DNA of 64,000 nt from assembly GCA_036395755.1 (NCBI GenBank), contig DASWCZ010000056.1, positions 12,074 through 76,073 on the forward strand. Reading direction: 5' to 3'. This DNA is from Thermoanaerobaculia bacterium. GTDB lineage: Bacteria > Acidobacteriota > Thermoanaerobaculia > UBA5066 > Gp7-AA6. Both the position numbers and the translations under genes were made by a program. This document shows positions 10,568 through 27,192 of this stretch, in pieces. The notes under the pieces were generated by a model, which was not told the DNA's origin, did not search any database, and saw nothing but the letters and a program-made list of their open reading frames with translations. How positions within the stretch are numbered: position 1 is the stretch's first letter; each line of letters opens with the position of its first letter.

Positions 10568-10573
10568 GGAGAT

Positions 10574-10582
10574 CCCACCTCC
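10574..10582 (-). promoter_or_regulatory. Shine-Dalgarno GGAGGTGGG for the kinase gene
   Basis: The reverse complement of 10574..10582 is GGAGGTGGG, with 6-nt spacing to the TTG at 10567. Confidence 0.6.
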
Positions 10583-10652
10583 CGGGGATCGTTGCGATTG
10601 TAACCGCGAGGACCGCGCGGAAACGTTCTCGGATCGCGCTCTGTCCTTTAGA

Positions 10653-11597: not shown

Positions 11598-12339
11598 CAA
11601 GGAGCCGCGACTCGGAGTCGGCTTCCTCGCATACAACGAGGAGGGCGCGATCGCCAAGACCGTGGCGGAGGCGGTCGCGTCGCTTTCGGCCGTCGAAGGT
11701 CTCGACTGGCGGATCCTGATCGTCAACGACGGAAGCCGGGACCGGACCGGCGAGATCGCGGAGTCCCTCGCCGCCGCGGACCCGCGGGTCTCGGTCGTGC
11801 ACCACGACGGAAACAAGGGATACGCGGTCGCCACGGAGACGGCGCTGCGCAACGCGCCGGGCGAAGTCGTGATGGTCGTGGACGGGGACGGACAGCACAC
11901 CATGGCCGACGCGCCGCGGTTTCTTGAGGCGATCCGGGAAGGCGCGGACGTCGTCTTCGGCTGGAAGAAGAAGCGCCACGACCCCTTTCCCCGGCTCGTC
12001 CTCTCGAAAGGCTTGAACACGCTCTCCCGCTGGATCCTCGGCTCTCCGCTCCATGACATCAATGGCGGCTGCCGCGCGTTCCGGAAGGACGTGGCCAGGC
12101 GGATCGAGATCCGGCATCGCATCAATTTCGTCGGCGACGAGATCTTCGCGCGGTGCCGGATCGCCGGATGGAAAGTCTCAGAGGTCGTCGTACGCCACTT
12201 CCCCCGGGAAGCGGGGCAGAGCATCCACCGCCCCTGGAAGATGCTCGGAACGATCTCCCGGGTCCTGCGCTACCTCTTCGAGCTCCGCGGAGAAATCCGC
12301 CGGGCCGACGCGATGAGACGTCTGGTCGGAGCGCGCTGA
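11587..12339 (+). CDS. GT2 glycosyltransferase (polyprenyl-phosphate sugar synthase/Dpm1-like)
   Basis: GVGFLAYNEE, VNDGSRDRT and VVDGDGQH are GT-A motifs. The start overlaps the UbiA gene end by 11 nt. Confidence 0.85.
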   Translation: MPADKEPRLGVGFLAYNEEGAIAKTVAEAVASLSAVEGLDWRILIVNDGSRDRTGEIAESLAAADPRVSVVHHDGNKGYAVATETALRNAPGEVVMVVDGDGQHTMADAPRFLEAIREGADVVFGWKKKRHDPFPRLVLSKGLNTLSRWILGSPLHDINGGCRAFRKDVARRIEIRHRINFVGDEIFARCRIAGWKVSEVVVRHFPREAGQSIHRPWKMLGTISRVLRYLFELRGEIRRADAMRRLVGAR

Positions 12340-12353
12340 GCGCGCCGACACGC

Positions 12354-13709
12354 ATGCCACGGATCGCGATCCTCGGGGGAGGCCCAACCGGCCTCGGCGC
12401 GGCGTACCGGCTTCGCGAGCGCGGCGTCGACGACTTCGAGGTCTTCGAGAGGGCCGGCCAGATCGGTGGGCTGGCCACCAGCTTCGAGGACGCGAAGGGT
12501 TACACGTGGGACGTGTCTGGCCACATCATTTTTTCGGGCTACCCGTACTTCAACGAGTTCCTCGAGAAGATGCTCGGCAAGGAGGGAATCCGGCGGATCG
12601 ATCGGGAGAGCTGGATCAAGTTCGAGGACCGTTACGTCCGCTATCCCTTCCAGAACCACCTGTCGTCGCTGCCCGAGCAGGCGATGCTCGAATGCCTGAT
12701 CGGCCTCGTCGAATCGCAGACGATCGACCGGGATCGCGCCTTCAAGAACTTCGAGGAATGGGTGTTCGCGAAGTTCGGCGCGGGGGTCTCGAAGCACTTC
12801 ATGATCCCTTACAACGAGAAGGTCTGGTCCACGCCGCTTTCGCAGATGGGGTTTTACTGGATCGCCGAAAGGGTGAGCGTCGTCGACTGGAAGAAGGCGC
12901 TCGAGACCGCGCTCCTTCCGAAGAACGTCGACTGGGGACCGAACGCGACCTTCGGCTATCCGGCCACGCGCGGGACGGTCGGGCTGTGGCTGGCTGTCCT
13001 GCCCTACCTGGGCGACCGCCTGCGCTGTCGCAAGCGAGCCGTCTGCGTGGACGAGGACGAGCGGGAAATCCGGTTCGCCGACGGCTCATCGGCGAGTTAC
13101 GAAAAACTTCTGACCACGCTGCCGCTCGAAGCCTTCGTCGCTCGACTCGCCCGCGCACCCGAGAGCGTGCGCGCGGCGTCGAAGAGGCTCCTCTTCAATC
13201 GGTTGTTCACGGTGGGGGTGGGACTGAAGCGGCCTTCGCCGTCGACGAAGAACTGGATCTACTTCCCGAACCCGAAGACGCCGTTCTACCGCATGACTTA
13301 CCTCTCGAACTATTCCCCCGACATCGTTCCGGGAGGGGACACGTCGCGACACTGCTCGCTGCTCACGGAGACGACCTACTCGCGGTTCCGGCCGCTGCCC
13401 GGCGGCGATTTCGCGAAATCCGTCGTGGACGGTCTCGTCGCCGAAGAGATCCTGCAGCCGGCAGACCTGCCGGCGATCGAGTCCGTGTACTTGATCCACG
13501 CCGCGCATGCCTATCCGATCCCGAGCGTGGACCGGGACGAGGCGCTCGGGACGATCCAGTCCTATCTCGAGTCGAAGGAGATCTACTCGCGCGGGCGCTT
13601 CGGATCCTGGAAGTACGAGATCGGAAACCAGGACCACTCGCTTATGCAGGGCAAGGAGGTCGTCGACCGCTGGCTGGATGGCTCGGAAGAGAAGGTATTC
13701 CGGAGCTAG
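12354..13709 (+). CDS. glf: FAD-dependent UDP-galactopyranose mutase, eukaryotic (GLF/UgmA)-type
   Basis: Rossmann motif IAILGGGPTGLGAAYRL. Blocks matching fungal/kinetoplastid UGM as I recall it: YTWDVSGHIIFS, YPFQNHLSSLP, WGPNATFGYPATRGTVGLW, WIYFPNPKTPFYRMTYLSNYSP, HAYPIPSVDRDEAL, YSRGRFGSWKYEIGNQDHSLMQG. The ATG at 12354 is the first Met after the GT2 stop. Confidence 0.8.
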   Translation: MPRIAILGGGPTGLGAAYRLRERGVDDFEVFERAGQIGGLATSFEDAKGYTWDVSGHIIFSGYPYFNEFLEKMLGKEGIRRIDRESWIKFEDRYVRYPFQNHLSSLPEQAMLECLIGLVESQTIDRDRAFKNFEEWVFAKFGAGVSKHFMIPYNEKVWSTPLSQMGFYWIAERVSVVDWKKALETALLPKNVDWGPNATFGYPATRGTVGLWLAVLPYLGDRLRCRKRAVCVDEDEREIRFADGSSASYEKLLTTLPLEAFVARLARAPESVRAASKRLLFNRLFTVGVGLKRPSPSTKNWIYFPNPKTPFYRMTYLSNYSPDIVPGGDTSRHCSLLTETTYSRFRPLPGGDFAKSVVDGLVAEEILQPADLPAIESVYLIHAAHAYPIPSVDRDEALGTIQSYLESKEIYSRGRFGSWKYEIGNQDHSLMQGKEVVDRWLDGSEEKVFRS

Positions 13710-13734
13710 CCGGCGGTTCTCCTCTGACGCGGCG

Positions 13735-15681
13735 GTGACGTTGAGACGGAACGGACTCCCGCCCGTCTGGGCGGTCGCGATCGCCCTCCTCGGCCTTTTC
13801 CTGATCGTGGTCGCGCACGTGCCCATGCAACGCCAGCAGATGCCGGCCTGGGCGGCGGCGGCGCTCGTATCCGGCGTGATGGTCTGGGTCGCGCTCGCGA
13901 TCCGTTTTCCCCCTGCGAAAGAGGACCTCGGGCCGCTCGCGCCGTCCGCCGGCGGTCCGCGAATCGTCCCGCTCGCGCTCTGCGCCGTTCTCGCGCCCCT
14001 CGCCTGGATCCACTCGGCCGGCGGGACCTACCGCACGGCCGGAGTGGCGGCGTGGATCGGCGCGGTCGCGTGCTGGCTGGCCGCCTGGCTCCCCGGGAGA
14101 GAGGCGCGCGCGGCGGTGGCGTCCCCGGCCCGATCGGGAGTTCCCGGGCGGGTCCGGGCCCTTGCGGCTCTCGCGGGCATCCTCGTCATCGGCGCGTGGT
14201 TCCTCTTCCACGGGCTCGCCGCGACGCCGGCCAACCCGACGAGCGACCACGCCGAGAAGCTTCTGGACGTCCTCGATCTCATCAACGGGGAGCGCCCGAT
14301 CTTTTTCGTCCGCAACACGGGGCGGGAGCCGTTCCAGTTCTACTGGACTTTCGCTCTGATCGAGATTTTCGGGTTACCGCTCAAATACCTGACTTTGAAG
14401 ATTGGCACCGCTGTCATCGGGCTGGCCGCGCTGCCCGCTCTGTATCTGCTCGGCTGCGAGATGGGCGGCGTGGCCCTGGGCCTCTCGGTGGCGGCCCTCG
14501 CGGCCTGGAGCAAGTGGCCCGTCTCGCTCGCCCGGCAGGGCCTGCGGTACCCGCTGGCAGTCCTACCGGCGGCCGTCGTTCTCTGGGCCCTCCTGCGCTA
14601 CGTCCGCCGGGGCGATCGGGCCTCGGTTCTCTGGGCGGGAGCCGTGATCGGGCTGGGTCTGCACGGATACATCTCCTTTCGGGCCGTGCCTCTCCTGGTC
14701 CCACTCGCGTTCGCGTTCGCTCTCGCCGACCGCCGGAGACGCGGGAGACGAATGGCCGTCGTGGGAGACGGTCTGCTGATCGCGGCGACCGCCGTTCTCG
14801 TTGCCCTGCCCCTCCTTCACTACACGGTGGAGCACCCGGAGCAGTTCTGGTATCGCGCCGCGACGCGAGTCGCGAGCCTCGAGAGACCGATCGGGCAGGA
14901 GCCGCTCGCGATCTTCGGACAGAACGTTCTCCACATGCTTCTCGCGTTCGATTGGCGCGGCGCCTCGACGTGGGTCGTGATCCGCCAGGGCGAGCCTTTC
15001 CTGGATGCGGCCACGGCTGGACTTCTGGTCGCCGGCGTCGTTCTTCTGGCGGCCCGCATTGCGCGGCGATCGTTGCGGTGGACGATCGTCGCTCTCGCGT
15101 TCTTCGTTCTGACGCTTTCCTCGACCCTCTCTCTCGCCTTTCCCGACGAGAACCCCAGCATCAACCGGAGCGGCACGGTGATTCCGGTCATTTTTCTCCT
15201 CGCCGCGCTCCCCGTCGTGGAGCTCCTCGCCCGCCCGCGGCGCCGGATCGCATCGCTCCTGGCCGGCGCCGGCATCGCGATCCTCTTCGTCTTGTCCGGG
15301 ATCCAGAACTACCGCGATTACTTCATCGGCTTCCACCGGAGCTACGAGCAGTCCGTGGATCACTCGATGGCGATGGCTCGCGTCCTCGACGACTACCGCA
15401 GGCAGGGCGTGCCTCTCCGACAGATGTACCTGCTCTACTCCGACTACTGGGTGGACGGACGCAACATCGCGTTCGAGCTCGGCGAGCCATCCTGGGCCTC
15501 CGGCCAGGTCTTCGACCCTGGCAAGCTGCCGCCGGACACCGGAGCGCGTCCTCTCATCTTCCTGCTCGCGCCGGGTAACCCGATCCTGGAGAAGCTCGAG
15601 AAGACCTATCCGACGGGGAAGGTTCGGACCGTCGTCCAGAACTTCGCCGACCGCAACTTCTACGTCTACTCCGTTCCCTGA
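13735..15681 (+). CDS. GT-C fold membrane glycosyltransferase (GT39/ArnT/PMT_2-like)
   Basis: 648-aa polytopic protein from GTG 13735 (VTLRRNGLPPVWAVAIALLGLFLIVVAH). It has many TM helices and a C-terminal soluble domain, with no similarity to transporters. The upstream part of the 13507 ORF overlaps the mutase gene. Confidence 0.7.
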   Translation: MTLRRNGLPPVWAVAIALLGLFLIVVAHVPMQRQQMPAWAAAALVSGVMVWVALAIRFPPAKEDLGPLAPSAGGPRIVPLALCAVLAPLAWIHSAGGTYRTAGVAAWIGAVACWLAAWLPGREARAAVASPARSGVPGRVRALAALAGILVIGAWFLFHGLAATPANPTSDHAEKLLDVLDLINGERPIFFVRNTGREPFQFYWTFALIEIFGLPLKYLTLKIGTAVIGLAALPALYLLGCEMGGVALGLSVAALAAWSKWPVSLARQGLRYPLAVLPAAVVLWALLRYVRRGDRASVLWAGAVIGLGLHGYISFRAVPLLVPLAFAFALADRRRRGRRMAVVGDGLLIAATAVLVALPLLHYTVEHPEQFWYRAATRVASLERPIGQEPLAIFGQNVLHMLLAFDWRGASTWVVIRQGEPFLDAATAGLLVAGVVLLAARIARRSLRWTIVALAFFVLTLSSTLSLAFPDENPSINRSGTVIPVIFLLAALPVVELLARPRRRIASLLAGAGIAILFVLSGIQNYRDYFIGFHRSYEQSVDHSMAMARVLDDYRRQGVPLRQMYLLYSDYWVDGRNIAFELGEPSWASGQVFDPGKLPPDTGARPLIFLLAPGNPILEKLEKTYPTGKVRTVVQNFADRNFYVYSVP

Positions 15682-16526
15682 CGGGCGGCAGAAGCGTTGC
15701 CATCCCGGGCAGCGAAGAGAAAGCCGATGTCGCGGTGAGCCGGGTTGGGGCGCGTTCGAACCCGGAAACCCCGTTCCTCGAGGAAGCGGACGAGGTCGTC
15801 GCGCCCGAAGCGTGTGACCCCCTCGTGGTACTCCATCGCGATGCGCCGGATGCGTTGCAACCCGACCTCGCTCGCCCCGAAGAGGATGTCGTACTCCGCG
15901 CCTTCACAGTCGATCTTGAGAAAATCGCATCGCTCGATTTTCGAGCGCTCGAAGACCTGGTCGAGGGTGATCGCTTCGACGGGAGCCGCGGACCCCTTCT
16001 CTCGCGACAGCGTGCGGGATCGCTCCGCGAGACCCGCCTTGGTCGCCATGTAGAGCCGGCCCGCGTCGGCCGCGACGGCCAGCGGAAACGTGCGTACGTT
16101 GGCGAGCCGGTTCAGCTCGAGGTTCGCGAGAAGGAGGGCGTAGGACTCGGCAAGCGGCTCGAACGCGTAGACGGTGGAATCGGGACATTCCCGCGCGGTC
16201 GAGATCGCGAAATCGCCCAGCCCGGCGCCCAGATCGACCACCGTCCACCCGTTCTCGACCGGCACGAACCCGCGCTCGTAATCCCGGTCCAGGCAGGTCT
16301 CCTTGATGATCCAGATGTCCATCCGGCCGCGCACGCGGAAGCGGCAGCCGGTCGAGAGCTCGATTCCGAACGGGCGGCGGCCGGGAAAACCCAGGAACGC
16401 CGAGAGAACCCGCAGAGGAGGGCGGATCTGTCGAAGGAGGGTCGGGATCGAGCCGACGTAGTAACGCCAGCGCGACAACGGACCGACTCTCGAAAACTCT
16501 CTCGCGTCCACGCTAGCGGAGCACAT
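15666..16526 (-). CDS. FkbM-family SAM-dependent methyltransferase
   Basis: VVDLGAGLGDFAIS, VYAFEP and DFLKIDCEGAEYDIL are typical FkbM motifs. The start overlaps the upstream gene end by 14 nt. Confidence 0.85.
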   Translation of the reverse strand: MCSASVDAREFSRVGPLSRWRYYVGSIPTLLRQIRPPLRVLSAFLGFPGRRPFGIELSTGCRFRVRGRMDIWIIKETCLDRDYERGFVPVENGWTVVDLGAGLGDFAISTARECPDSTVYAFEPLAESYALLLANLELNRLANVRTFPLAVAADAGRLYMATKAGLAERSRTLSREKGSAAPVEAITLDQVFERSKIERCDFLKIDCEGAEYDILFGASEVGLQRIRRIAMEYHEGVTRFGRDDLVRFLEERGFRVRTRPNPAHRDIGFLFAARDGNASAARQGTE

Positions 16527-19071
16527 CCGCGAGGTTCCAGAAGTAGAGGTGGTTCGTCTCGCGGTCCGACACCGCCACGCGGCCGAGCGGGTCCACCGTC
16601 ACGCCGGTCGGTCGTTTGAAGATGCCGTCCGGCCTCCAGGAGTGACGCAGGTTGCCCGCGGCGTCGTACTCGTTGACGCGTCCTTCCGTCGAGTCGGTCG
16701 CGAAAATCGATCCGGTGGGTCCGATCGCGAGGTAAGGCTCGGTGTAGAAGTCTTTCCACCCGAATACTGGGAACTCCCGCACGAACTTGCCTTCGGAGTC
16801 GAATACCTGGATCCGGTGATTGCCGGTGTCCGCGACGTAGACGTTGCCGGCGGCGTCGGCCGCGAGTCCGACCGGCTCGACGAACTGACCCGGACCGCTG
16901 CCGGGCGTGCCCCAATCCGAGACGCGCTTTCCTTCCTTGTCGAATCGGACCACGCGCTTGTTTCCGGTGTCGGCCACGTAGAGGAAGCCGCGCGAGAGAA
17001 GGACGGCGCGGGGTCCGAAGAATCCCCTCACGTCGTCGGTCCAGACCCCGAGCCACGAGCCGTCCGCCTTGAAGCGGGCGATCCGATGGTTCCAGGTGTC
17101 GGCGACGACCACCGTTCCGTCGGCGTCGACGGCGACGCCGCACGGCTCCTTCAACTGCCCGTCACCCGAACCCGAAGTCCCGATCGCCCGGATGAACTGG
17201 CCGTTCGGGTCGAACACCTGGATGCGGCCGTTCTTGGTGTCGGCGACGTACAGGTTGGCGCGGGAATCGGCAGCGAGCCCGCGCGGCTCGTTGAACTGCC
17301 CGTTACCGGACCCCGGCTCTCCGAAGACGCGCGCGGGCGCGACGACTGTCGCGGAGCCGCCCGCATAGTCGCGCGCCGAGGTGTTCTGCAGCGGAACGTT
17401 CAAAGGGGCGAGCGGCCCGGAGCTCGCGAGGTCCTTTCGCACGAAGAAGGTCGAATCCTGGGAGCCGATCGGGCTCCAGATCTCGTGGAAGAGCCACCAG
17501 CGGGCGAGATCGGTCAGCGTCGGCCGAGCGGGCCCGTTCGGGTCGAGCTTGTATTTCTCGGCGAACCACCACGCCCGGATCGGGACGCGTTTGGCGGTGT
17601 ACTGCGCTGCGAGCTGTTTCTCGAGCCCGCCCTGCGGGTCCCAGTCCGAGATGAGGATCGGCGTGGTCGCGTCGTCGATGCGCGTGACCCACTTCGTCGG
17701 CATGTCGCGGAAGTACCAGGTCAGCGGCCAGGAAGCCTCGCCGGCGACGGTGACGACCGCCTCTCCAGGCGCGACTTTCCGGCGCGCGACATCGACCTGC
17801 TCGAGCGCCCGCGTCAGATCGCGGGTCGTCTGCACGTATGCCAGGATCTCGGCGTGCTTCGGCTCGCGCTCCAGGTCATGCGCCCCGTAGCGAAAGCACG
17901 CCAGGAGCATGCCGCTCGCGTTCACGAGAGCGAGGACGAAGAGCACCGCCAGCGCGAGCCGGGGGCGCTTTTCCCGCCGGTCGCGCCAGAGCGACGCGAA
18001 TCCGACCGCTGCGAGGATGGTGATCGGGAGGAGAGCGTGCACGGTCAGCCAGGGGACCTTCTCGCGCGCCCAGGCATAGAGAAGAAGCGACCCGATCGCC
18101 CAGAAAAGCACGAAGCGCAGGAAGGGGGAGGCGCGCTTTCCCGAACGCCGGAAGGCGAAGCAGGCCGCGAAGACTATCGCGGTCTCGTAGTAGAGAAGTT
18201 GTGGAACGTAGTAGTACCAGGGTCCCGGAATGCGCGCGATGGAATGCTGGCCCATCCAGTACTTGATTGCCTTGGGTATCGCGAGCCAGTCCTTCGGATA
18301 CTTCCCGAACGCCGTGTACATCAGCGCCCAGATCGCCAGAAACACGAGCGCCGCCGTGGCGATCGGAAGGATGCGCGCGCGGACCCAGCCCGCGGTTGCG
18401 CGGATGGCCTCGGCGAGCGCGTCTTTCCGCCCCTTCGCCAGCGCGACGCGCTCGACGAGGGCCCAGGCGCCGTAGGCGACGAACAGCACGCCGGTCATGT
18501 AGGCGTTTTCCTTCGTCACGCCGGCGAGCGCGAAAGAAACTGCGGCGAGCGTGAGCCAGTGCGCCCGGTCGGTCTCCAGGAAACTCTGGAATGCCAGGAT
18601 CGTCCCGAGCGTGAACACGAGGGAGTACACGTCCTCCCGGATGAACCGCGAAAAGTACGTCAGGTGCGGCGAGATCAGGACGAGAGCCGCGTACGCCGCG
18701 GCCGCGCCGGTGCCGACCCAGCGGGCGAGCGGGATCGCTGCGGCAATCAGGAGTAGGCCGAAAATCGCCGGGAGGAGCCGGGCCGTCGTGTTCGACGCGC
18801 CCAGCAGCCGGTAGACGAGAGCATTCGCGTAGTAAAGGAACGGCCCGTGGTAGGCCGGGTCGTATCGCCAGTTGCCGTCCTTCATCAGCGTGTAGGACTG
18901 GTGCGCGTGAATCGATTCGTCGTGATGGAACGGCCGGTCGCCGAGAGACCAGAACCTCGTCGTCAGAGCCAGGAGCGCGATCAGGATCCCGGCGGCCGCG
19001 ACCGCCTGCCGTCGAGCTGGCGCGCGTTCCGGTCTCTCCTCGATCTTTTCGAGGGTCTGCGGCTCCGTCAC
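16513..19071 (-). CDS. TIGR03663-like GT-C membrane protein fused to a C-terminal NHL-repeat beta-propeller
   Basis: N-terminal ~540-aa polytopic region with RPFHHDESIHAHQSY...YDPAYHGPFLYY. C-terminal ~290 aa carry NHL repeats (LYVADTKNGRIQVFD, VVVADTWNHRIARF, LYVADTGNKRVVRFD, VYVADTGNHRIQVFD). GTG at 19071 overlaps the upstream stop as GTGA. Confidence 0.8.
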   Translation of the reverse strand: MTEPQTLEKIEERPERAPARRQAVAAAGILIALLALTTRFWSLGDRPFHHDESIHAHQSYTLMKDGNWRYDPAYHGPFLYYANALVYRLLGASNTTARLLPAIFGLLLIAAAIPLARWVGTGAAAAYAALVLISPHLTYFSRFIREDVYSLVFTLGTILAFQSFLETDRAHWLTLAAVSFALAGVTKENAYMTGVLFVAYGAWALVERVALAKGRKDALAEAIRATAGWVRARILPIATAALVFLAIWALMYTAFGKYPKDWLAIPKAIKYWMGQHSIARIPGPWYYYVPQLLYYETAIVFAACFAFRRSGKRASPFLRFVLFWAIGSLLLYAWAREKVPWLTVHALLPITILAAVGFASLWRDRREKRPRLALAVLFVLALVNASGMLLACFRYGAHDLEREPKHAEILAYVQTTRDLTRALEQVDVARRKVAPGEAVVTVAGEASWPLTWYFRDMPTKWVTRIDDATTPILISDWDPQGGLEKQLAAQYTAKRVPIRAWWFAEKYKLDPNGPARPTLTDLARWWLFHEIWSPIGSQDSTFFVRKDLASSGPLAPLNVPLQNTSARDYAGGSATVVAPARVFGEPGSGNGQFNEPRGLAADSRANLYVADTKNGRIQVFDPNGQFIRAIGTSGSGDGQLKEPCGVAVDADGTVVVADTWNHRIARFKADGSWLGVWTDDVRGFFGPRAVLLSRGFLYVADTGNKRVVRFDKEGKRVSDWGTPGSGPGQFVEPVGLAADAAGNVYVADTGNHRIQVFDSEGKFVREFPVFGWKDFYTEPYLAIGPTGSIFATDSTEGRVNEYDAAGNLRHSWRPDGIFKRPTGVTVDPLGRVAVSDRETNHLYFWNLADVLR

Positions 19072-20090
19072 GGCTTCTTGCTGCCGGGGAGAAGGATCTT
19101 CGACACCCCATTGCTGGCGGAGTTGACGACGTACACGATGCGCTGCTTGCCGTCCAGAGCGAGTCCCGTCGGGCGCGCGAACGGCTTGCCCGAATCGTCG
19201 GAGCTCCACGTGTTTCGAACGGTTCCTCCGCTCGCGAGCTCGAGGACGGTGTTCCCGTTGGGATTGGTCACGTAGATCTCTCCCGTCTCGCCGACCTCGA
19301 GGAACGGTTCGGCCGCCCCTTCCCAAGCGGCGACCGGCAGTGATTTCTGGAACCGGCCTTCTTTATCGAGAACTTCGATCCGCCGATTACCGATGTCCGC
19401 GACGTAGACCTGCCCGCTGGGTCCGACGCCGATGCCAACCGGGCTCGAGAACTCGCCGGGGCCGGCGCCGAGCTTGCCGATCGCCCGCTGTTCCCCGAGC
19501 GACCGGTTGAAGACCACCACTTTGTGGTTGCCCGTGTCCGTGATCCACACCTTTCCGTCGGGCGCCGCAGCGACTCCGCGCGGTCCGAAGAATCCGGCTG
19601 CGGTCGCCTTCCATTCCCCCTTCACCGTGTAGTACTGGATCCGTCCGTTCCAGGTGTCCGCGACGTAGAGATCTTCTCCGCGCGCCGCGACGCCGGCGGG
19701 CTGCCTCAGACTAAAGGTCCCGTTACCCGGATTTCCCCAGCCGCCGAGGTATCCGCCGTTGCCGTCGAAGACCCGGATGCGCGAGTTGCCGAAGTCTGCA
19801 ATCCACAGCCTTCCTTCTCCATCCAGGGTCGCGTCGCGCGGCTCGCTCATGCCCGCGAAAGGCGGTCGCTCCTGGACGGGCGCCGAGCGGATCGACGGCT
19901 CCGTTGGCTCGCCGGGGTGCTTCGCCGCCGCCGGAGCCGCGCCCTCCGGCTTTGCCGGCGCTTCCTTTCGCCGGCACGCGATCGGAACGACGAGGAAAAG
20001 TAGGGCGAGCGCGACGCCGACTCCGGGGTGGCGGAAGCGTTTCGCGGGGGAGGGCTCCGTCCGGACGTGCGACGAGGATGAATCGGTCAC
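19068..20090 (-). CDS. NHL-repeat beta-propeller lipoprotein
   Basis: GTG at 20090 overlaps the upstream stop as GTGA. Lipoprotein signal ...GVGVALALLFLVVPIAC, a Pro/Ala linker, then a 265-aa NHL domain paralogous to the C-terminus of the upstream giant protein. Confidence 0.85.
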   Translation of the reverse strand: MTDSSSSHVRTEPSPAKRFRHPGVGVALALLFLVVPIACRRKEAPAKPEGAAPAAAKHPGEPTEPSIRSAPVQERPPFAGMSEPRDATLDGEGRLWIADFGNSRIRVFDGNGGYLGGWGNPGNGTFSLRQPAGVAARGEDLYVADTWNGRIQYYTVKGEWKATAAGFFGPRGVAAAPDGKVWITDTGNHKVVVFNRSLGEQRAIGKLGAGPGEFSSPVGIGVGPSGQVYVADIGNRRIEVLDKEGRFQKSLPVAAWEGAAEPFLEVGETGEIYVTNPNGNTVLELASGGTVRNTWSSDDSGKPFARPTGLALDGKQRIVYVVNSASNGVSKILLPGSKKP

Positions 20091-20884
20091 GGCGCTTTCC
20101 TTTCCGCAAGATTCAGCCGGGAGACGGAGTTGTTGCCCGAATCGATGACATACAGAATATCTCGCCGACGATCGAGAGCGAGGCCGGTCGGCTTCGCGAA
20201 CTTGCGGCCCTGGTCGTCCGCGCTCCACGTGCGCTCGACCGAGCCCGAAGAGTCGAACGCGCGGACCGCGCCGGTGGCGGGGTCAGCGGCATAGATCGTT
20301 TCGTCGCGGCCGATTTCGATGTGCGGTTCGACCGGTCCTTGCCATCCGGGCACGTCGAAGGCGCGCTGGAACTGGCCCGACGCGTCCAGGATCACGACCC
20401 GGTGATTCCCGACGTCGGCGACGTACACCGAGCCCGACGGGCCGACGGCGATCCCGACGGGACTCGAGAACTCTCCCGGGCCCGATCCCTTCTTTCCGAC
20501 GACCTGCCGGTTCTGCAGGACGGCGTCGTAAGTCACGAGCTGATGGTTCCCGGTGTCGGTCACCCAGACCTTTCCCTCCGCGGAAATCGCGACGCCGCGC
20601 GGCCCGTAGAGGCCCGCCGCCGAACCTTTCGGCTCACCGGCGAGAGTGAAGGACTGGAGACGGCCGTTCCAGGTATCGGCGATGTACAGGTCCTCTCCCC
20701 GGATCGCCACGGCGCAGGGCTCCCGCAGTCCGAAGGTGCCGCTGCCGCGGCCGCCCCATCCGCCGAGGTATCCGCCTCCTCCGTCGAAGATCCGCAGCCG
20801 CGAGTTGCCGAAGTCCGCGATCCAGATCCTGCCCTTTCCGTCCACGTCGCCGTCCCGGGGCTCCCGCATGCCGGAGAAGGGGGG
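19068..20884 (-). repeat. tandem duplication of a 798-nt NHL-domain coding module (19068..19865 and 20087..20884)
   Basis: My gapless hand alignment of the two 265-aa translations finds 153 of 265 positions identical. Long identical runs include WIADFGNSR, GEDLY.ADTWNGR, GPGEFSSPVGI.VGPSG.VYVAD and PTGLALD. Confidence 0.85.
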
Positions 20885-23800
20885 GCGTCCCTGCTCCGCC
20901 GTCTCCGCGATCGCGGGCGCCTCCTCTTGCTCGACGACCTCCGCGGCGCCCGCTGCCACCGGGACGTTCTCCTTCGCGGGCACGATGACGTCTTGCGAGT
21001 CGCCCCCGATGACCCGGTAGATCTTGACCTCCGGGTTCTCGTAAGCGCGCTCGAAGAGGTCCGTCGCGCGGTCGAACTTGCGCAGGCCTTCCGCGGGATA
21101 AGTCTTGCGCTCGAGCCAGCCGACGTAGACGTAACCGACGTGATATCGCCGCAGCAGGTGCTCGATGGGCGCGGCTTCCCGGCTGGAATAGATCCGCTCG
21201 ACCGCCTCGCGCCTCTCGACGACCTCCGTTTCTGGGTTGCCGCGCTGCTTGACGTGGTGCTCCCATCCGAGCACGGTCGGAAGCCCCGTCAGCATCGAGA
21301 TGCGGCTGAAGTCCTGGTACGGATCGCCGTGGGCTTCCAGGAGCACGGGCGTCCCCCGGATCGTCCGTCGAAGCCAGAGGACCGCGCGGTATTCACCGGG
21401 CCTCGTCTCCTCGAGGTATCGGAGCCCGTCGAGTGTGGGGCCCGAATACGCCGCGAAGTGGTTGCTGACCGCGCCGCGCGCGGCCGTGACGGTCGTGAAG
21501 AGAGCCGCGATGGCGAGGAGGAAGAGAACGGCGCGCGGAGGAAAACGCCAGCGCCCGTAGACGCCGCGTCGGTCCTTCGGCCGGAAGACGAGCGCGGCGG
21601 CCGCGACCGCGAAGAGGAGCCAGGCCTCCAGGTAGAGCTTGAAGATCGTGTTCATCCGGTCGGAGATGTAGACCTTCTGCGTGAAGAGGATCAGAAAGAA
21701 GGCAGCGGCGACGAAGCCGCAGGCGAGTCGCTCGTCCGGATCGGTCGCGCGGTCGGCGGCCGCGGCGAAAAAGAGCAGGACGCCCGCGCAGGCGAAGACT
21801 TCCACCGAGAGAAATCCGAGCAGGGCGAGCAGGCCGCCGACGGCCGCCACGAGGATGAGGCGCATTCGTCTCTCGAGGCCCTGCTCCGCCATCCGGTCGG
21901 AGACGAAGCCGAGCAGCCACGCAAACGCGAGGAAGAAGAAGAGACCGAACACGGTCACGACGTCGACGCCTTTCGCGCCGGGCTCCTGTTCCCAGCCGAA
22001 CCCCGGGCTTCCACCCCCGTGCACCCAGAGAGGAGCGGCGGTCGCCCAGGCGGCCGCCACGGTCGTGAGCACGCCCGGCGCCATTCGCGCGAGGTGCGCC
22101 GGCGCGAATCGGCCGGCGGAGGCAGTCACCAGGAAGACGATTCCGCACAGGCCGGCGAGTAGCGGCGCGTCCCACGCGTTCGTCAGGGCCTGCGCCGCGG
22201 CGGCGAAGCCCAGGATCGCGCCCGATGCGATCCGCGAGATCGGCCTCGCGGGCGGGCTGGAGTTCACGCGGACGAAGTGGAGGGCGGCGGCGCCGACGAG
22301 CAGAAAGAGCGGCATCGCGAGGACGTGCGCGTGCAGGTCCGCGAAGACGAGGCTCCAGAACGGGTACTCGTTGATGGTGTCCTTGATGATGCGGGAGGTC
22401 GCCCAGAAATAGTTCCAGTCGAGGGCTCGATGATTGAGCAGCCACTCGCGCAGGCCCGAGAGATTCCCGAGGACCACGGCCAGCCCTGCGCCGGCGACGC
22501 CGGCTCGCACCGTTCCCGTCCAGTTGCGCAGGAGGGTGAAGGAGCCCTGCAGCATCAGCCCGCCGAGCAGCCCGAAGGCGAGATTGAACGTGAAGCGGGT
22601 AGAGAGCCCGGTTAAGAGCGTCAGGAAAGCGATCATCTGCTGCCCGAACGCGTAGTAGCCGAGCGGAGCGCCGGCGAACCAGGGATCGGAGGCGGGGAGA
22701 GTCCGGGTCCGCACGAGGATGTTCAGGATCGAGAAGTCCATCGGCTTCTCTCCCCAGTAGATCTCGGGGTTGAACGCGCGGATGCCGAGGAAGAGGAGGA
22801 ACCCGAGAGCAAACGCCGCCTCGCCCGCGACCACGAGGCGCCGGCGCTCGCGGAAGAAGTCGATAATCAACCGCCGCCGCGCGAAGAAGAGGAGCGCAGA
22901 GGGAAGCGCCGCGAGCGCCAGACACGTCCACGCCGCCCCGCGTCCGTTGGATAGGATCCGAAGCTGGACGAGCACGGCGAAAAGGAAAGTCGTTCCGACG
23001 ATTCCCAGGATTCTGGAGACACCGGCGCCGCGGTCCGCCAGGCGCGGGAAGAACGCGTGCGCGAGAGGAAACGCGACCGCTCCCACCAGAAGGATCCCCA
23101 GGTACCACAGGATTGCGGCGCCGAAGGATCCGATCGCGATCTCCCGGGTTCCCGATCCCACCAATGTCTTGTCGAAGTCCGCGCGGTGGGGAGGGTAGAT
23201 CGGCGACGTCACGGTCCGCTTCGACCGCGGCCACTTCTCCCAGTCTCCGAGCGTCGGCGGCGTCTGCGGCATCGAGGCGAGAAGGATCTGCGTCACCCGC
23301 CCGGGGGAGAACTGTTTGTTCTTGCGGAAGAGGACGACCCGCGGATGGTCGTAAACCGTGAACTGCTCCTCGGCGCGGTCGTCCGGGACCTTCAACGGCC
23401 CGAGCGTCGGGTAGGAATTGAAGTCGGCGGCGAGGTCGAAGCCCAGCCGTCCCTCGAAGAGCGCGCTGTAGTAGGCGCGCGACATCGGAAAAACTGCGGG
23501 GATCCGGGTCAGGTTCACGTAGACGCGGTTGCTGGTGACCGCAATCCAGTCCGATTCCTTCAGGACCTTGACGACGTCTTCCACCTTTCTCGGCGAGTCC
23601 GGATCGAAGAGGGTCAGCTGCGGTCCGTTGTAGGCGCCCATGTCGTATCCCGGCAGAGGAAGCGGCAGGGCATCGTCCCAGGACTCGTTCGCGAAGCGCG
23701 CTGGCGGCGGCACGTTCTCGTAGATCCACTTCGCCGCGGCCACGCGGGGATGCGGACGGCGGTAGATCGACGTGAAAGCAAGGCCCCAGAGAAACGTTCC

Positions 23801-25018
23801 GGCGACCGCGATCGCCGGAAGGAAACGCAGGACCCGGGCGCTCTGACGGCGCGCGCTTCGCGCGCGCGCGGCGAGGTCGCCGAGGAACAGCGTGGCGAGC
23901 ACCGCGAGCGCGGGGTACGCCGGGTAGAAATAGCGGATCGACTTGACGATCGAGAGGCCGTGGTAGAGCAGGAGAAACACGGCGTGCGCCACGAGCGGCA
24001 CGAGAGCCCGCCGCGCCCCCTTTCTCGCGACGAGAACGGCCCAGCCGAGCGCGGCGAGCGCCGGGAGCGCGAAGAACGGTCCGGCGCCCCAGAAAACCAT
24101 GTTTCCGATCGGGAAAAGGATCGTGCGTCCCGCCCATTGGAACGCGGGCGGGAATCCGGAGACGCTCGAGGAGAGCTCCGCCAGCCGCTTCATGTCCGCC
24201 AGGTAGCGCGGATCCAGCCGGAAGGAGAAGAATCCCGAGCCGGCGAACGCGTAAGGCAGGCCGAAACGCACCGCGACCGCCGCCGCCGCCAGGCAGAGGG
24301 CGAAGCGGCCCGCCATCCCGGCGATCCGGGGGCCGGGACTCCTCTCCTCTCGCGGCGTGTCGCGTCGAAAAGCGCCGATCAGGAGTCCCAGGCCGACCGG
24401 CACGAAGAGCGCGAGCGCGGTCACTTTGCAGGAGGCCGCGAAGCCGAGGGCGACACCGGTCAGGACGACTTCCAGGGGGCGGGAACGACCCTGCGCGAGG
24501 TGGACCGCGCCTAAGAGCGTCGCGGTAGAGAAGGCGGTCAGGAACGTGTCGACCGCCCAGAAGTGCGAGAGCTGAAGTCCGAGCGGACAGAATGCCAGAA
24601 GGGCCGCCGCCGCGAGCGCCAGCCGGCGATCTTTGGAGAACCGCCGGGCGAGAAGGTAGGCGAGCCACACCGAGGCTAAGTCCGCGAAGGCGGAGAGCAC
24701 CCGGCCGACGAGATAGGCGCCGCCGTAGCCGCTCTTTCCGAGGAGGCCGGCGACGGCTTTCGTCACGAAGATTGGCAGAGTTCCGTAGACGAACGAGTCG
24801 TGGCCGCGGTTGTAGGGGTTGAGCGATGACCGCGCCGAATCGAAGTACGCGGCCGGGCTCTTCGGGAACACGAGCTTCTCCTCGACCATCGAGATGAAGC
24901 GCTCGTCCGGGTGGAGATGGTGCCCCGCGTCCCAGTCGAGACCGGAGAGACGCAGGACGGCCCCAGCGGCGATCAGGACGAAAAAGAGCTGGCGGGCGCG
25001 GTGCCGGCTCAGGCGCAA
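20087..25018 (-). CDS. 1643-aa three-module envelope protein: GT-C (PMT_2/ArnT-like) + DUF2298 ('YYY', TIGR03662-like) + NHL beta-propeller
   Basis: TTG start at 25018 (MRLSRHRARQLFFVLIAAGAVLRL). First periplasmic loop has HPDERF. The central region has DTINEYPFWSLVFADLHAHVLAMPLFLL, typical of DUF2298. The last 265 aa are NHL repeats. Coding bias is continuous and there are no internal stops. Confidence 0.85.
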   Translation of the reverse strand: MRLSRHRARQLFFVLIAAGAVLRLSGLDWDAGHHLHPDERFISMVEEKLVFPKSPAAYFDSARSSLNPYNRGHDSFVYGTLPIFVTKAVAGLLGKSGYGGAYLVGRVLSAFADLASVWLAYLLARRFSKDRRLALAAAALLAFCPLGLQLSHFWAVDTFLTAFSTATLLGAVHLAQGRSRPLEVVLTGVALGFAASCKVTALALFVPVGLGLLIGAFRRDTPREERSPGPRIAGMAGRFALCLAAAAVAVRFGLPYAFAGSGFFSFRLDPRYLADMKRLAELSSSVSGFPPAFQWAGRTILFPIGNMVFWGAGPFFALPALAALGWAVLVARKGARRALVPLVAHAVFLLLYHGLSIVKSIRYFYPAYPALAVLATLFLGDLAARARSARRQSARVLRFLPAIAVAGTFLWGLAFTSIYRRPHPRVAAAKWIYENVPPPARFANESWDDALPLPLPGYDMGAYNGPQLTLFDPDSPRKVEDVVKVLKESDWIAVTSNRVYVNLTRIPAVFPMSRAYYSALFEGRLGFDLAADFNSYPTLGPLKVPDDRAEEQFTVYDHPRVVLFRKNKQFSPGRVTQILLASMPQTPPTLGDWEKWPRSKRTVTSPIYPPHRADFDKTLVGSGTREIAIGSFGAAILWYLGILLVGAVAFPLAHAFFPRLADRGAGVSRILGIVGTTFLFAVLVQLRILSNGRGAAWTCLALAALPSALLFFARRRLIIDFFRERRRLVVAGEAAFALGFLLFLGIRAFNPEIYWGEKPMDFSILNILVRTRTLPASDPWFAGAPLGYYAFGQQMIAFLTLLTGLSTRFTFNLAFGLLGGLMLQGSFTLLRNWTGTVRAGVAGAGLAVVLGNLSGLREWLLNHRALDWNYFWATSRIIKDTINEYPFWSLVFADLHAHVLAMPLFLLVGAAALHFVRVNSSPPARPISRIASGAILGFAAAAQALTNAWDAPLLAGLCGIVFLVTASAGRFAPAHLARMAPGVLTTVAAAWATAAPLWVHGGGSPGFGWEQEPGAKGVDVVTVFGLFFFLAFAWLLGFVSDRMAEQGLERRMRLILVAAVGGLLALLGFLSVEVFACAGVLLFFAAAADRATDPDERLACGFVAAAFFLILFTQKVYISDRMNTIFKLYLEAWLLFAVAAAALVFRPKDRRGVYGRWRFPPRAVLFLLAIAALFTTVTAARGAVSNHFAAYSGPTLDGLRYLEETRPGEYRAVLWLRRTIRGTPVLLEAHGDPYQDFSRISMLTGLPTVLGWEHHVKQRGNPETEVVERREAVERIYSSREAAPIEHLLRRYHVGYVYVGWLERKTYPAEGLRKFDRATDLFERAYENPEVKIYRVIGGDSQDVIVPAKENVPVAAGAAEVVEQEEAPAIAETAEQGRPPFSGMREPRDGDVDGKGRIWIADFGNSRLRIFDGGGGYLGGWGGRGSGTFGLREPCAVAIRGEDLYIADTWNGRLQSFTLAGEPKGSAAGLYGPRGVAISAEGKVWVTDTGNHQLVTYDAVLQNRQVVGKKGSGPGEFSSPVGIAVGPSGSVYVADVGNHRVVILDASGQFQRAFDVPGWQGPVEPHIEIGRDETIYAADPATGAVRAFDSSGSVERTWSADDQGRKFAKPTGLALDRRRDILYVIDSGNNSVSRLNLAERKAP

Positions 25019-27145: not shown

Positions 27146-27192
27146 CAAGATCCGGCGGCGGGACGTCGCATCCCGCAGCGGGGCGGCAGCGC

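What the first reader, a model, noticed from the sequence alone, without database searches (positions are those of the whole stretch)
16513..20884. Three consecutive genes each end in an NHL beta-propeller; two copies are a recent tandem duplicate
Three adjacent genes carry a C-terminal NHL propeller: the 1643-aa protein, the 340-aa lipoprotein and the 852-aa TIGR03663-like protein. The first two propellers align without gaps over 265 aa, with 153 identical positions by my hand count. Each occupies exactly 798 nt including the stop codon (19068..19865 and 20087..20884). The third propeller (roughly 16513..17400) is more diverged.

The three genes are joined by GTGA start/stop overlaps at 20087-20090 and 19068-19071, so they are probably made in fixed ratios. 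One propeller exists both free (lipid-anchored) and fused to two different GT-C-like membrane enzymes. This suggests it acts as the periplasmic substrate-recognition or scaffold module of the system.
Basis: seen in the sequence. Interest (0 to 1): 0.75.

Follow-up and report, generated by a model that had tools for sequence, protein, structure and literature searches.

The report
Three NHL propellers on envelope glycosylation enzymes
Three adjacent genes of an uncultured Acidobacteriota (Thermoanaerobaculia) bacterium each end in a six-bladed NHL propeller, most likely a periplasmic binding module of a lipid-linked-sugar glycosylation machine; two of them are an old, not a recent, tandem duplicate.

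Summary
Three translationally overlapping minus-strand genes (1643, 340 and 852 aa) each end in an NHL propeller. Propellers A (20087-20884) and B (19068-19865) align without gaps at 153/265 identical residues. Propeller C is 37-41% identical to both.

"Recent" is wrong. Synonymous sites between A and B are saturated (dS about 1.4). The free copy B already exists in at least five related metagenome loci, and window B groups with its counterpart in L002 (98% bootstrap).

The 852-aa protein is a TIGR03663/Agl23-family member. Its modelled membrane part has a GT-C fold (ArnT, ALG9/12, STT3, Pmt4), followed by an ArnT-like periplasmic domain and then a canonical six-bladed propeller. The 1643-aa protein combines a PMT-like module, a Chlor_Arch_YYY/DUF2298 module and a propeller.

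The locus is conserved in Thermoanaerobaculia. It also carries a stand-alone YYY protein, GT4, methyltransferases, a polyprenyl-phosphate-hexose-synthase-like GT2, a UbiA prenyltransferase resembling decaprenyl-phosphate phosphoribosyltransferase, and an FAD oxidoreductase.

My best reading is that the propellers are non-catalytic periplasmic acceptor-binding or scaffold modules. B would be a membrane-tethered stand-alone copy; whether it is lipid-anchored is uncertain. This function is inferred, not shown. Interest is modest: the fusion is common in public data, machine-annotated there, and I found no paper describing it.

The parts
20087..25018 (-). 1643-aa membrane protein made of a PMT-like GT-C module, a Chlor_Arch_YYY/DUF2298 module and NHL propeller A
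   Evidence: Pfam PMT at residues 101-214, DUF2298 at 680-1136 and NHL; NCBIfam TIGR03662 at residues 632-1336, 457.7 bits against a 300 cutoff. Orthologues of 1618-1646 aa occur in L029-L032.
20087..20884 (-). NHL propeller A (265 aa plus stop), six sequence repeats
   Evidence: Ungapped 153/265 identity to B; six blade repeats. A Lys/Arg-rich loop precedes the last TM helix, so the tail is predicted periplasmic.
20087..20090 (-). GTGA overlap: stop codon of the 1643-aa gene and GTG start of the 340-aa gene
19068..20090 (-). 340-aa stand-alone NHL protein (B): N-terminal hydrophobic anchor or signal (residues about 19-39, Cys39), a Pro/Ala-rich linker, then the propeller
   Evidence: The same gene call appears on public contig L001. 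dN/dS is about 0.23 against the L002 orthologue.
19068..19865 (-). NHL propeller B (265 aa plus stop)
   Evidence: Blades 1, 2 and 4 are 66-76% identical to A; blade 5 is only 37% identical.
19068..19071 (-). GTGA overlap: stop codon of the 340-aa gene and GTG start of the 852-aa gene
16513..19071 (-). 852-aa TIGR03663/Agl23-family protein: GT-C-fold membrane domain (residues 1-395), periplasmic alpha/beta domain (about 396-575), NHL propeller C
   Evidence: TIGR03663 at 340.7 bits. AF2 models have pLDDT 84. Foldseek matches GT-C enzymes for residues 1-575 and NHL domains for the C-terminus. HHDE (49-52) and YHGP (74-77) are invariant in 52 homologues.
16513..17346 (-). NHL propeller C, six four-stranded blades; the N-terminal strand appears to complete the last blade
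   Evidence: DSSP strands 581-846 in the model. TM-score 0.84-0.91 to TRIM2, Thin and Brat NHL domains. A GWKDFYTEP loop is invariant in 52 homologues.
15666..16526 (-). FkbM-family methyltransferase; its start overlaps the end of the 852-aa gene by 14 nt
   Evidence: Conserved after the Agl23-NHL gene in L002 and L007.
25158..25991 (-). SAM-dependent methyltransferase (about 277 aa) upstream of the 1643-aa gene
   Evidence: Orthologues of 266-275 aa in L029-L031.
25988..27142 (-). GT4 glycosyltransferase (about 384 aa)
27193..29397 (-). Stand-alone Chlor_Arch_YYY/DUF2298 membrane protein (734 aa, no propeller); first gene of the operon
   Evidence: TIGR03662 at 474 bits; Pfam DUF2298; conserved in all long loci.
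10491..11597 (+). UbiA-family prenyltransferase; best match is decaprenyl-phosphate phosphoribosyltransferase, below the cutoff
   Evidence: Conserved next to the locus in L007 and L030-L033.
11587..12339 (+). GT2 resembling polyprenyl-phosphate sugar synthases (Dol-P-hexose transferase, ArnC, PgfS)
12153..13709 (+). FAD/NAD(P)-binding oxidoreductase with an amine-oxidase fold (PRK07208-like). The true start is probably near 12354, because orthologues are 451 aa.
13507..15681 (+). Conserved 724-aa protein with no family match, convergent with the operon

Best explanation
Proposed mechanism

The three propellers are periplasmic, six-bladed, non-catalytic NHL beta-propellers. They serve as ligand-binding or scaffold modules of a conserved Thermoanaerobaculia envelope-glycosylation machine that uses polyprenyl-phosphate-linked sugars.

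Proposed working order:
1. On the cytoplasmic face, a GT2 (Agl22/ArnC-like) and a UbiA-type phosphoribosyltransferase-like enzyme load sugars onto polyprenyl phosphate. A GT4 and methyltransferases elaborate the glycan.
2. The lipid-linked sugars are flipped and used on the periplasmic face. The enzymes here are the Agl23-like GT-C protein (852 aa) and the PMT-like + YYY protein (1643 aa).
3. Each of these two proteins carries its own propeller directly behind its periplasmic domain. The propeller holds the acceptor (a glycan chain or an envelope protein), or a partner subunit, next to the active site.

Origin of B

B is a stand-alone, membrane-tethered copy. It arose by tandem duplication of the linker and propeller end of the 1643-aa gene, at the NTGA gene junction. 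It has been kept under purifying selection ever since. A and B have diverged most in blade 5, which suggests altered specificity.

Shown versus inferred
- Shown: domain identities, GT-C fold, six blades, age and phylogeny of the duplication, locus conservation, junction overlaps.
- Inferred: periplasmic location (positive-inside rule, ArnT analogy, B's N-terminal anchor), a non-catalytic binding role, and the nature of donor and acceptor.
For: Propeller identity
- NHL is the top Pfam hit for all three proteins.
- The nearest solved relatives are non-enzymatic NHL domains (TRIM, Thin, Brat, PknD sensor), by sequence and by fold, with TM-score 0.84-0.91.
- The columns invariant across 14 A, B and C propellers belong to the repeated D-x-x-N-x-R, E-P-x-G and G-P-R blade motif. 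None is His, Cys, Ser or Tyr.

Membrane modules
- Residues 1-575 of the 852-aa protein match GT-C enzymes that all use polyprenyl-phosphate-linked donors: ArnT at E = 3e-11 over 585 columns, then ALG12, ALG9, STT3/PglB/AglB, Pmt4, AftD, EmbB and AftB.
- An invariant HHDE follows TM1, where PMT-type GT-C enzymes carry their DE motif.

Topology
- RDRREKRPR precedes the last TM helix of the 852-aa protein. A loop with five Lys/Arg precedes the last TM helix of the 1643-aa protein.
- B has an N-terminal hydrophobic anchor.

Conservation
- The Agl23-like + NHL fusion is present in all complete proteins among the 120 best homologue clusters, down to about 54% identity. This holds even when only the membrane part is the query.
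- The locus order is conserved across loci: YYY, GT4, MTase, big-NHL, (free NHL), Agl23-NHL on one strand, with UbiA, GT2 and FAD convergent.
- In L033 the propeller sits on other membrane modules (PMT-NHL of 892 aa, DUF2298-NHL of 1096 aa). A PMT_2 paralogue there carries PA14, a known carbohydrate-binding domain, instead. This looks like a swappable periplasmic module.

Selection
- dN/dS is 0.12-0.25 for all three propellers.

Known relative
- H. hispanica Agl23 is a putative hexose-P-dolichol flippase, and the purified protein translocates a lipid-linked oligosaccharide (PMC11182771).
Against: - No ligand, acceptor or donor is known, and nothing here was tested biochemically.
- NHL-clan propellers include enzymes (PAL, Vgb lyase, SGL lactonases). 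Pfam SGL also scores above its own cutoff on all three proteins.
- Agl23 is described as a flippase rather than a transferase, so the membrane modules may not be glycosyltransferases.
- The YYY module has no demonstrable fold relative.
- A and B evolve about three times faster than C (dN 0.26-0.28 against 0.09). This could reflect relaxed constraint rather than new specificity.
- Relatives lacking B (L004-L008, L031) show that B is dispensable for the core machine.
Confidence: 0.55

Rival explanations
1. The propellers are mainly assembly scaffolds. They bind each other or the propeller-less membrane proteins of the locus (the 734-aa YYY protein, the 724-aa unknown protein), holding the enzymes in one complex of fixed stoichiometry. 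They would not recognise the substrate.
For: The stop/start overlaps suggest coupled synthesis. Eukaryotic NHL domains often mediate protein-protein contacts (established knowledge). The free copy B could bridge to partners that lack a propeller.
Against: Genomes without B keep the same propeller-less partners. A and B diverge fast, whereas interface residues in an obligate complex are usually conserved. There is no co-variation or complex prediction to support it.
Confidence: 0.2
2. The propellers are enzymes that process the glycan or its lipid carrier in the periplasm. Candidate activities are those of PAL, Vgb or SGL/lactonase-type six-bladed propellers: a lyase, lactonase or phosphodiesterase.
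For: Secondary Pfam hits to SGL are above cutoff, at 58.7, 40.6 and 32.6 bits. Hits to Vgb_lyase, Arylesterase and Phytase-like are below cutoff. PAL (3fvz) appears among the fold matches at E = 9e-15.
Against: NHL proper scores far higher. The best structural relatives are non-catalytic. No His, Cys, Ser or Tyr is invariant across the A, B and C propellers. Vgb_lyase scores stay below its 50-bit cutoff.
Confidence: 0.15
3. The propellers are periplasmic sensor domains, like the NHL domain of the kinase PknD. They would report envelope or ligand state to regulate the attached membrane enzymes.
For: The PknD sensor domain is among the sequence and fold relatives. A Ser/Thr kinase gene flanks the locus in the window and in L030/L031.
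Against: The flanking kinase carries no detected NHL domain. The propellers are fused to biosynthetic membrane modules, not to signalling modules.
Confidence: 0.05

Closest known systems
Agl22/Agl23 of Haloarcula hispanica (Dol-P-hexose synthase plus putative hexose-P-dolichol flippase; NCBIfam TIGR03663)
   Same: The 852-aa protein passes the TIGR03663 model (340.7 bits). It keeps the family's N-terminal DE and HGP motifs. A GT2 whose best NCBIfam match is the haloarchaeal dolichyl-phosphate hexose transferase lies in the locus.
   Different: This is a bacterial (Acidobacteriota) locus. It carries an extra C-terminal NHL propeller. The GT2 match (78 bits) is far below the equivalog cutoff (375). 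Flippase or transferase activity is untested here.
GT-C glycosyltransferases with appended periplasmic or lumenal modules: ArnT, PMT1/2/4 (MIR domain), TMTC1-4 (TPR), AftD/EmbA-C (carbohydrate-binding modules)
   Same: GT-C fold with an acidic motif after TM1 and a C-terminal extracytoplasmic domain. A repeat or binding module is attached on the non-cytoplasmic side. That these modules help position the acceptor in the named enzymes is established knowledge.
   Different: The appended module here is an NHL beta-propeller. I found no paper describing this on a GT-C enzyme. A stand-alone copy is encoded between the two enzymes.
TIGR03662 Chlor_Arch_YYY / Pfam DUF2298 membrane proteins
   Same: Both the 1643-aa and the 734-aa proteins pass the model (457.7 and 474 bits). 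They are co-located with a TIGR03663 member. From my memory of the TIGRFAMs family description, that pairing is typical; I did not check it here.
   Different: Here one copy is fused to a PMT-like module in front and an NHL propeller behind. The function of the family is unknown.
Canonical six-bladed NHL propellers (TRIM2/3/71, Thin, Brat; extracellular sensor domain of M. tuberculosis PknD)
   Same: Sequence E-values reach 1e-36. TM-score is 0.84-0.91 at rmsd 2.4-3 A. There are six four-stranded blades.
   Different: The context differs: periplasmic and attached to lipid-linked-sugar enzymes, rather than cytosolic RNA/protein binding or a kinase sensor.
Mycobacterial decaprenyl-phosphoryl-arabinose pathway (UbiA Rv3806c, DprE1/E2) feeding GT-C arabinosyltransferases
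   Same: The UbiA-family gene's best matches are decaprenyl-phosphate phosphoribosyltransferase models. It sits beside an FAD oxidoreductase, and in relatives an SDR, next to GT-C enzymes. AftD, EmbB and AftB are among the fold hits.
   Different: Scores are below the equivalog cutoffs. The FAD enzyme has an amine-oxidase fold, not the DprE1 type. The window lacks the SDR. This is only a lead.

Membership tests
NHL repeat beta-propeller (Pfam PF01436) | Several NHL repeat matches above the Pfam gathering score | tested here: met
   134.9, 116.5 and 105.7 bits against a 20-bit cutoff for the 852-, 340- and 1643-aa proteins.
NHL repeat beta-propeller (Pfam PF01436) | Six four-stranded blades forming a closed propeller | tested here: met
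   Shown for C by the AF2 model (pLDDT above 90 across most of the propeller, 24 strands) and by TM-score 0.84-0.91 to solved NHL domains. For A and B it is inferred from six sequence repeats and 37-41% identity to C; they were not modelled.
TIGR03663 / Agl23 family | Full-length HMM score above the curated cutoff | tested here: met
   340.7 bits against 126.25, residues 26-457.
TIGR03663 / Agl23 family | Conserved N-terminal DE dipeptide and HGP tripeptide (family description, recalled from memory) | tested here: met
   H49, H50, D51, E52 and Y74, H75, G76, P77 are invariant in 52 homologues.
TIGR03663 / Agl23 family | Translocation of lipid-linked sugars | not testable with these tools
   Activity is shown only for H. 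hispanica Agl23 (PMC11182771).
GT-C fold glycosyltransferases | Multi-span GT-C membrane fold with a C-terminal extracytoplasmic domain | tested here: met
   Shown for the 852-aa protein. The top 40 Foldseek hits are all GT-C enzymes: ArnT at E = 3e-11 with TMq 0.56-0.58, then ALG12, ALG9, STT3/PglB/AglB, Pmt4, AftD, EmbB, AftB and PimE. For the 1643-aa protein there is only the Pfam PMT hit on residues 101-214.
GT-C fold glycosyltransferases | Acidic catalytic motif in the first extracytoplasmic loop | tested here: met
   DRPFHHDE directly follows TM1 in the 852-aa protein. HPDE follows TM1 in the 1643-aa protein. Catalytic use is not shown.
GT-C fold glycosyltransferases | Transfer from a polyprenyl-phosphate-linked donor | not testable with these tools
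   Only the context speaks for it: a polyprenyl-phosphate sugar-synthase-like GT2 and a UbiA enzyme in the locus.
TIGR03662 Chlor_Arch_YYY / DUF2298 | HMM score above the curated cutoff | tested here: met
   457.7 bits (1643-aa protein) and 474 bits (734-aa protein) against 300.25.
GT-C fold, asked of the YYY/DUF2298 module | Detectable homology to a GT-C profile or to a solved GT-C structure | tested here: inconclusive
   hhalign against the Agl23-like profile gives probability 0.2%. There is no PDB sequence match at E <= 10.
Bacterial lipoprotein (340-aa protein) | Lipobox [LVI][ASTVI][GAS]C at the end of a signal peptide | tested here: inconclusive
   The window has V-P-I-A-C, with Pro at -3, which fails the PROSITE-type rule. 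L002 (LIAGC) and L003 (GGAAC) fit. L029 and L030 have no Cys. A dedicated predictor was not available.
Recent tandem gene duplicate | Low synonymous divergence, or restriction to a single genome | tested here: not met
   dS is about 1.4 and four-fold sites are at the composition expectation. B orthologues occur in L002, L003, L029, L030 and L032.

The most novel reading that the evidence does not exclude
The free propeller gene was born by a tandem duplication that spanned the overlapping stop/start junction. The new ORF inherited the start codon, the polar head and the first transmembrane helix of the downstream Agl23-like gene, and fused them to the linker and propeller of the upstream gene. 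The result would be a membrane-tethered, trans-acting acceptor-capture module. In some lineages its anchor later evolved into a lipoprotein signal. If so, this locus would be a natural example of a GT-C enzyme's recognition domain becoming a separate, diffusible subunit with its own specificity.
Probability: 0.25. Interest if true: 0.45.

Novelty: new variant of a known kind. Interest (0 to 1): 0.3.

Why it matters
GT-C enzymes and Agl23/YYY proteins build cell-envelope glycans from lipid-linked sugars. How they pick their acceptors is often set by appended extracytoplasmic modules such as MIR, TPR or carbohydrate-binding domains.

An NHL propeller in that position, conserved across a whole class of uncultured Acidobacteriota, would add a new type of recognition module. 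One lineage also encodes it as a separate tethered protein. That soluble protein is a practical handle: it could be expressed alone to fish for the unknown acceptor of an uncharacterised envelope pathway.

The locus also gives the poorly understood TIGR03662/TIGR03663 gene pair a bacterial genomic context: GT2, UbiA, an FAD oxidoreductase, GT4 and methyltransferases.

The finding remains a domain-architecture observation with no functional data. The fusion is already abundant and machine-annotated in public databases. Its importance is therefore moderate.

Tried and rejected
1. Two homologue searches with the 340-aa protein timed out.

2. The exhaustive representative search with the 340-aa protein was swamped by giant multi-propeller proteins: 92,896 hits. 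Only a few single-stretch relatives were useful (P0128, P0169, P0188, P0270).

3. 'Recent duplicate' is rejected.

4. Gene conversion between A and B is rejected. Within-genome identity (58% in the window, 57% in L002) is no higher than cross-genome A/B identity (56-59%).

5. The hypothesis that B's N-terminus derives from the N-terminus and TM1 of the 852-aa gene has only weak support.
- A segment-preserving shuffle gives a summed p of about 0.01 over four related, non-independent genomes; the polar head alone gives p = 0.06.
- The nucleotide alignment of the two junctions is uninformative.
- L003 B has a short, typical lipoprotein signal unlike the Agl23 N-terminus.
- I keep this only as the novel case.

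6. One versus two origins of B cannot be decided. The NJ tree does not join the window/L002 B clade with the L029/L030 B clade, and deep A/B nodes have 44-63% support.

7. YYY as a GT-C relative: the hhalign result is negative and there is no PDB sequence hit.

8. Sequence searches of the Agl23-like membrane part against PDB found nothing. Only the fold search worked.

9. Searching with the membrane part alone, to find relatives carrying other C-terminal modules, returned only NHL-bearing orthologues.

10. My hydropathy script gave overlapping segments. I used it only for the charged loops before the last TM helices.

11. Literature searches for DUF2298, TIGR03662/3 and NHL + GT-C returned nothing relevant.

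Full report
**1. What is in the sequence**

The window is about 67% G+C. The region holds three minus-strand genes:
- 20087-25018, 1643 aa
- 19068-20090, 340 aa
- 16513-19071, 852 aa

A public metagenome contig that encodes the same 852-aa protein carries independent gene calls giving the same 340-aa and 852-aa products and the same overlaps.

GTG starts overlap the preceding TGA stops at 20087-20090 and 19068-19071. The next gene, an FkbM methyltransferase (15666-16526), overlaps the 852-aa gene by 14 nt.

Propeller A (20087-20884) and propeller B (19068-19865) are each 798 nt with the stop. Propeller C is 37-41% identical to both, with a few short indels.

Pfam NHL is the best hit on all three proteins, at 105.7-134.9 bits against a 20-bit cutoff. 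By sequence, the closest solved structures are the TRIM, Thin and Brat NHL domains and the PknD sensor domain.

**2. The duplication is not recent**

Between A and B, identity by codon position is 180, 199 and 127 of 266.
- Nei-Gojobori estimates are pS 0.63, dS about 1.4 and dN 0.35.
- Among four-fold degenerate sites in identical residues, 38/94 match. Base composition alone predicts 35%.

Synonymous sites are therefore saturated.

Related loci come from Acidobacteriota/Thermoanaerobaculia metagenome-assembled genomes.

A free NHL gene sits after the large gene and upstream of the Agl23-like gene in the window, L002, L029, L030 and L032. In L032 a PMT_2 gene lies between the free NHL gene and the Agl23-like gene. 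The short contig L003 has two tandem NHL segments after the end of a large gene. L004-L008 and L031 have no free NHL gene.

In an NJ tree:
- All A and B propellers form one clade, and all C propellers form another (100% bootstrap).
- Window B groups with L002 B (98%).
- L029 B groups with L030 B (99.5%).
- The deeper A/B branching is unresolved (44-63%), so one or two duplication events are both possible.

Within-genome A/B identity is no higher than between genomes, so there is no concerted evolution.

Between the window and L002, dN is 0.28 for A, 0.26 for B and 0.09 for C. dN/dS is 0.12-0.25. Amino-acid identity is 61% for A, 64% for B and 86% for C, against 76-81% for the membrane parts. 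All three propellers are therefore under purifying selection, but A and B evolve about three times faster than C. Blade 5 is the most diverged blade between A and B: 37% identity, against 66-76% in blades 1, 2 and 4.

**3. What the three proteins are**

*The 852-aa protein.* It passes NCBIfam TIGR03663, 'flippase activity-associated protein Agl23', at 340.7 bits against a 126 cutoff.

An AlphaFold2 model built on 52 homologues has pLDDT 84. It shows a helical membrane domain (residues 1-395), an alpha/beta domain (about 396-575) and a propeller of 24 strands.
- The propeller matches solved six-bladed NHL domains at TM-score 0.84-0.91.
- Modelled alone, residues 1-575 (pTM 0.85) match only GT-C enzymes: ArnT (E = 3e-11 over 585 columns), ALG12, ALG9, STT3/PglB/AglB, Pmt4, AftD, EmbB, AftB and PimE.

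HHDE directly follows TM1, and YHGP follows further on. Both are invariant in all 52 homologues.

A strongly basic loop (RDRREKRPR) precedes the last TM helix. As in ArnT, the domain after that helix should be periplasmic, so the propeller should be periplasmic too. This is an inference.

*The 1643-aa protein.* It combines three modules:
- a PMT-like N-terminal module (Pfam PMT 48 bits; HPDE after TM1)
- a Chlor_Arch_YYY/DUF2298 module (TIGR03662, 457.7 bits against a 300 cutoff)
- propeller A

A basic loop again precedes the last TM helix.

I could not show that the YYY module is GT-C-like. hhalign against the Agl23-like profile gives probability 0.2%, and there is no PDB sequence relative.

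*The 340-aa protein.* It has an N-terminal hydrophobic segment, a Pro/Ala-rich linker and propeller B.
- The window sequence VVPIAC has Pro at -3 and so is not a canonical lipobox.
- The Cys followed by RR is conserved in the window, L002, L003, P0128 and P0199.
- L029 and L030 have a hydrophobic anchor without Cys. L032 has an atypical AFC.

The conserved property is membrane tethering on the outer face. Lipidation is plausible in the window's subclade but unproven.

**4. The locus**

The three genes are the core of a conserved cluster.

On the minus strand, upstream of the 1643-aa gene:
- a stand-alone YYY protein (27193-29397)
- a GT4 (25988-27142)
- a SAM methyltransferase (25158-25991)

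Convergent on the plus strand:
- a UbiA-family enzyme whose best NCBIfam matches are decaprenyl-phosphate phosphoribosyltransferase models (181 bits, below the cutoffs)
- a GT2 whose best matches are Dol-P-hexose transferase, PgfS and ArnC
- an FAD oxidoreductase of the PRK07208 type
- a 724-aa protein with no family match

The same gene set, flanked by LigD and a Ser/Thr kinase, recurs in L005-L008 and L029-L033.

The Agl23-like + NHL fusion is present in all complete proteins among the best 120 homologue clusters (54-93% identity). This holds even when only the membrane part is the query. NCBI names these proteins Agl23.

In L033 the propeller is attached to other modules: a PMT-NHL protein of 892 aa and a DUF2298-NHL protein of 1096 aa. 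A PMT_2 paralogue there carries a PA14 domain instead. This is what a swappable periplasmic recognition module would look like.

**5. How it most likely works**

From the literature: H. hispanica Agl23 is a putative hexose-P-dolichol flippase, and the purified protein translocates a lipid-linked oligosaccharide in liposomes (PMC11182771).

By analogy, and given the GT-C fold, I propose the following.
1. The GT2 and UbiA enzymes load sugars on polyprenyl phosphate in the cytoplasm.
2. The Agl23-like and PMT-like/YYY proteins flip and/or transfer these sugars on the periplasmic side.
3. The propellers hold the acceptor, or a partner, near the active site. MIR, TPR and carbohydrate-binding modules do this for PMT, TMTC and AftD/Emb (established knowledge).

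Two observations favour a binding role over a catalytic one.
- The invariant columns across A, B and C belong to the repeated blade motif, and none is His, Cys, Ser or Tyr.
- The nearest structures are non-enzymatic.

Rivals are a pure assembly scaffold, an enzymatic propeller (Pfam SGL hits are above cutoff) and a PknD-like sensor.

**6. Origin of the free copy**

In genomes without B, the large gene's TGA overlaps the start of the Agl23-like gene (TTGA in L005-L008). In most genomes with B, both junctions carry an NTGA overlap.

This fits a tandem duplication that included the junction. It would give B the start, and perhaps the polar head and TM1, of the downstream gene.

Support is weak:
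- The segment-preserving shuffle gives a summed p of about 0.01 over four non-independent genomes.
- L003 B has a short, ordinary lipoprotein signal.

I rate this at about 0.25.

**7. Novelty and verdict**

I found no paper on NHL propellers attached to GT-C, Agl23 or YYY proteins, and none on DUF2298 function. The architecture is nevertheless abundant and machine-annotated in public data.

It is a new variant of a known theme: a GT-C enzyme with an appended extracytoplasmic module.

The tandem paralogues, coupled genes and GT-C context stand. 'Recent' is wrong, 'lipoprotein' is uncertain, and the function is untested.
- Interest is about 0.3.

Noticed in passing
window 29421-30119 (+) and 30628-31989 (+): LigD 3'-phosphoesterase and LigD primase-polymerase genes (non-homologous end joining) lie directly beside the glycosylation locus. 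LigD_N is adjacent in L008 and L031 too, and a Ku gene lies near the locus in L033.
   Followed up: partly
window 8495-10867 (-): A 790-aa Ser/Thr protein kinase flanks the UbiA end of the locus. Its roughly 400-aa C-terminal half has no family match. The kinase adjacency is conserved in L030 and L031.
   Followed up: no
window 10491-13709 (+): A three-gene module: a UbiA enzyme (best hit decaprenyl-phosphate phosphoribosyltransferase, below cutoff), a polyprenyl-phosphate sugar-synthase-like GT2, and an amine-oxidase-fold FAD enzyme. It is conserved next to the GT-C genes, and relatives add an SDR epimerase. This may be an analogue of the lipid-linked pentose donor pathway that feeds mycobacterial arabinosyltransferases.
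   Followed up: partly
window 13507-15681 (+); L029 12568-16520, L031 12471-14516: Conserved proteins of 640-724 aa in the locus have no Pfam or NCBIfam hit. The window copy is 43-64% identical to those in relatives.
   Followed up: no
window 25158-27266 (-): The mechanical 702-aa ORF is not one gene. The GT4 is encoded in another frame (25988-27142). Only the last roughly 277 codons (25158-25991) are the methyltransferase, as in relatives.
   Followed up: yes
window 16513-17346 versus 19068-19865 and 20087-20884; L002: Between the window and L002, propellers A and B have about three times the non-synonymous divergence of propeller C (dN 0.26-0.28 against 0.09). A is also less conserved than its own membrane domains (61% against 76-77% identity).
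   Followed up: partly
L033 1-8004: A relative has a different layout: a PMT-like + NHL protein (892 aa) on the opposite strand, a DUF2298 + NHL protein (1096 aa) lacking the PMT-like module, and a PMT_2 + PA14 protein. The 1643-aa protein of the window is therefore either a fusion, or the L033 pair is a fission.
   Followed up: partly
L032 5301-7940: Here the free NHL gene (315 aa) is separated from the large gene by a 12-nt gap instead of an overlap. It is followed by an extra PMT_2 membrane protein (555 aa) with no propeller, which precedes the Agl23-NHL gene.
   Followed up: no
window 16513-19071 (-), residues 771-779 of the 852-aa protein: An aromatic-rich loop, GWKDFYTEP, between blades 4 and 5 of propeller C is invariant in all 52 homologues aligned. 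A and B keep only W...EP at this position. It is a candidate ligand-contact site.
   Followed up: no
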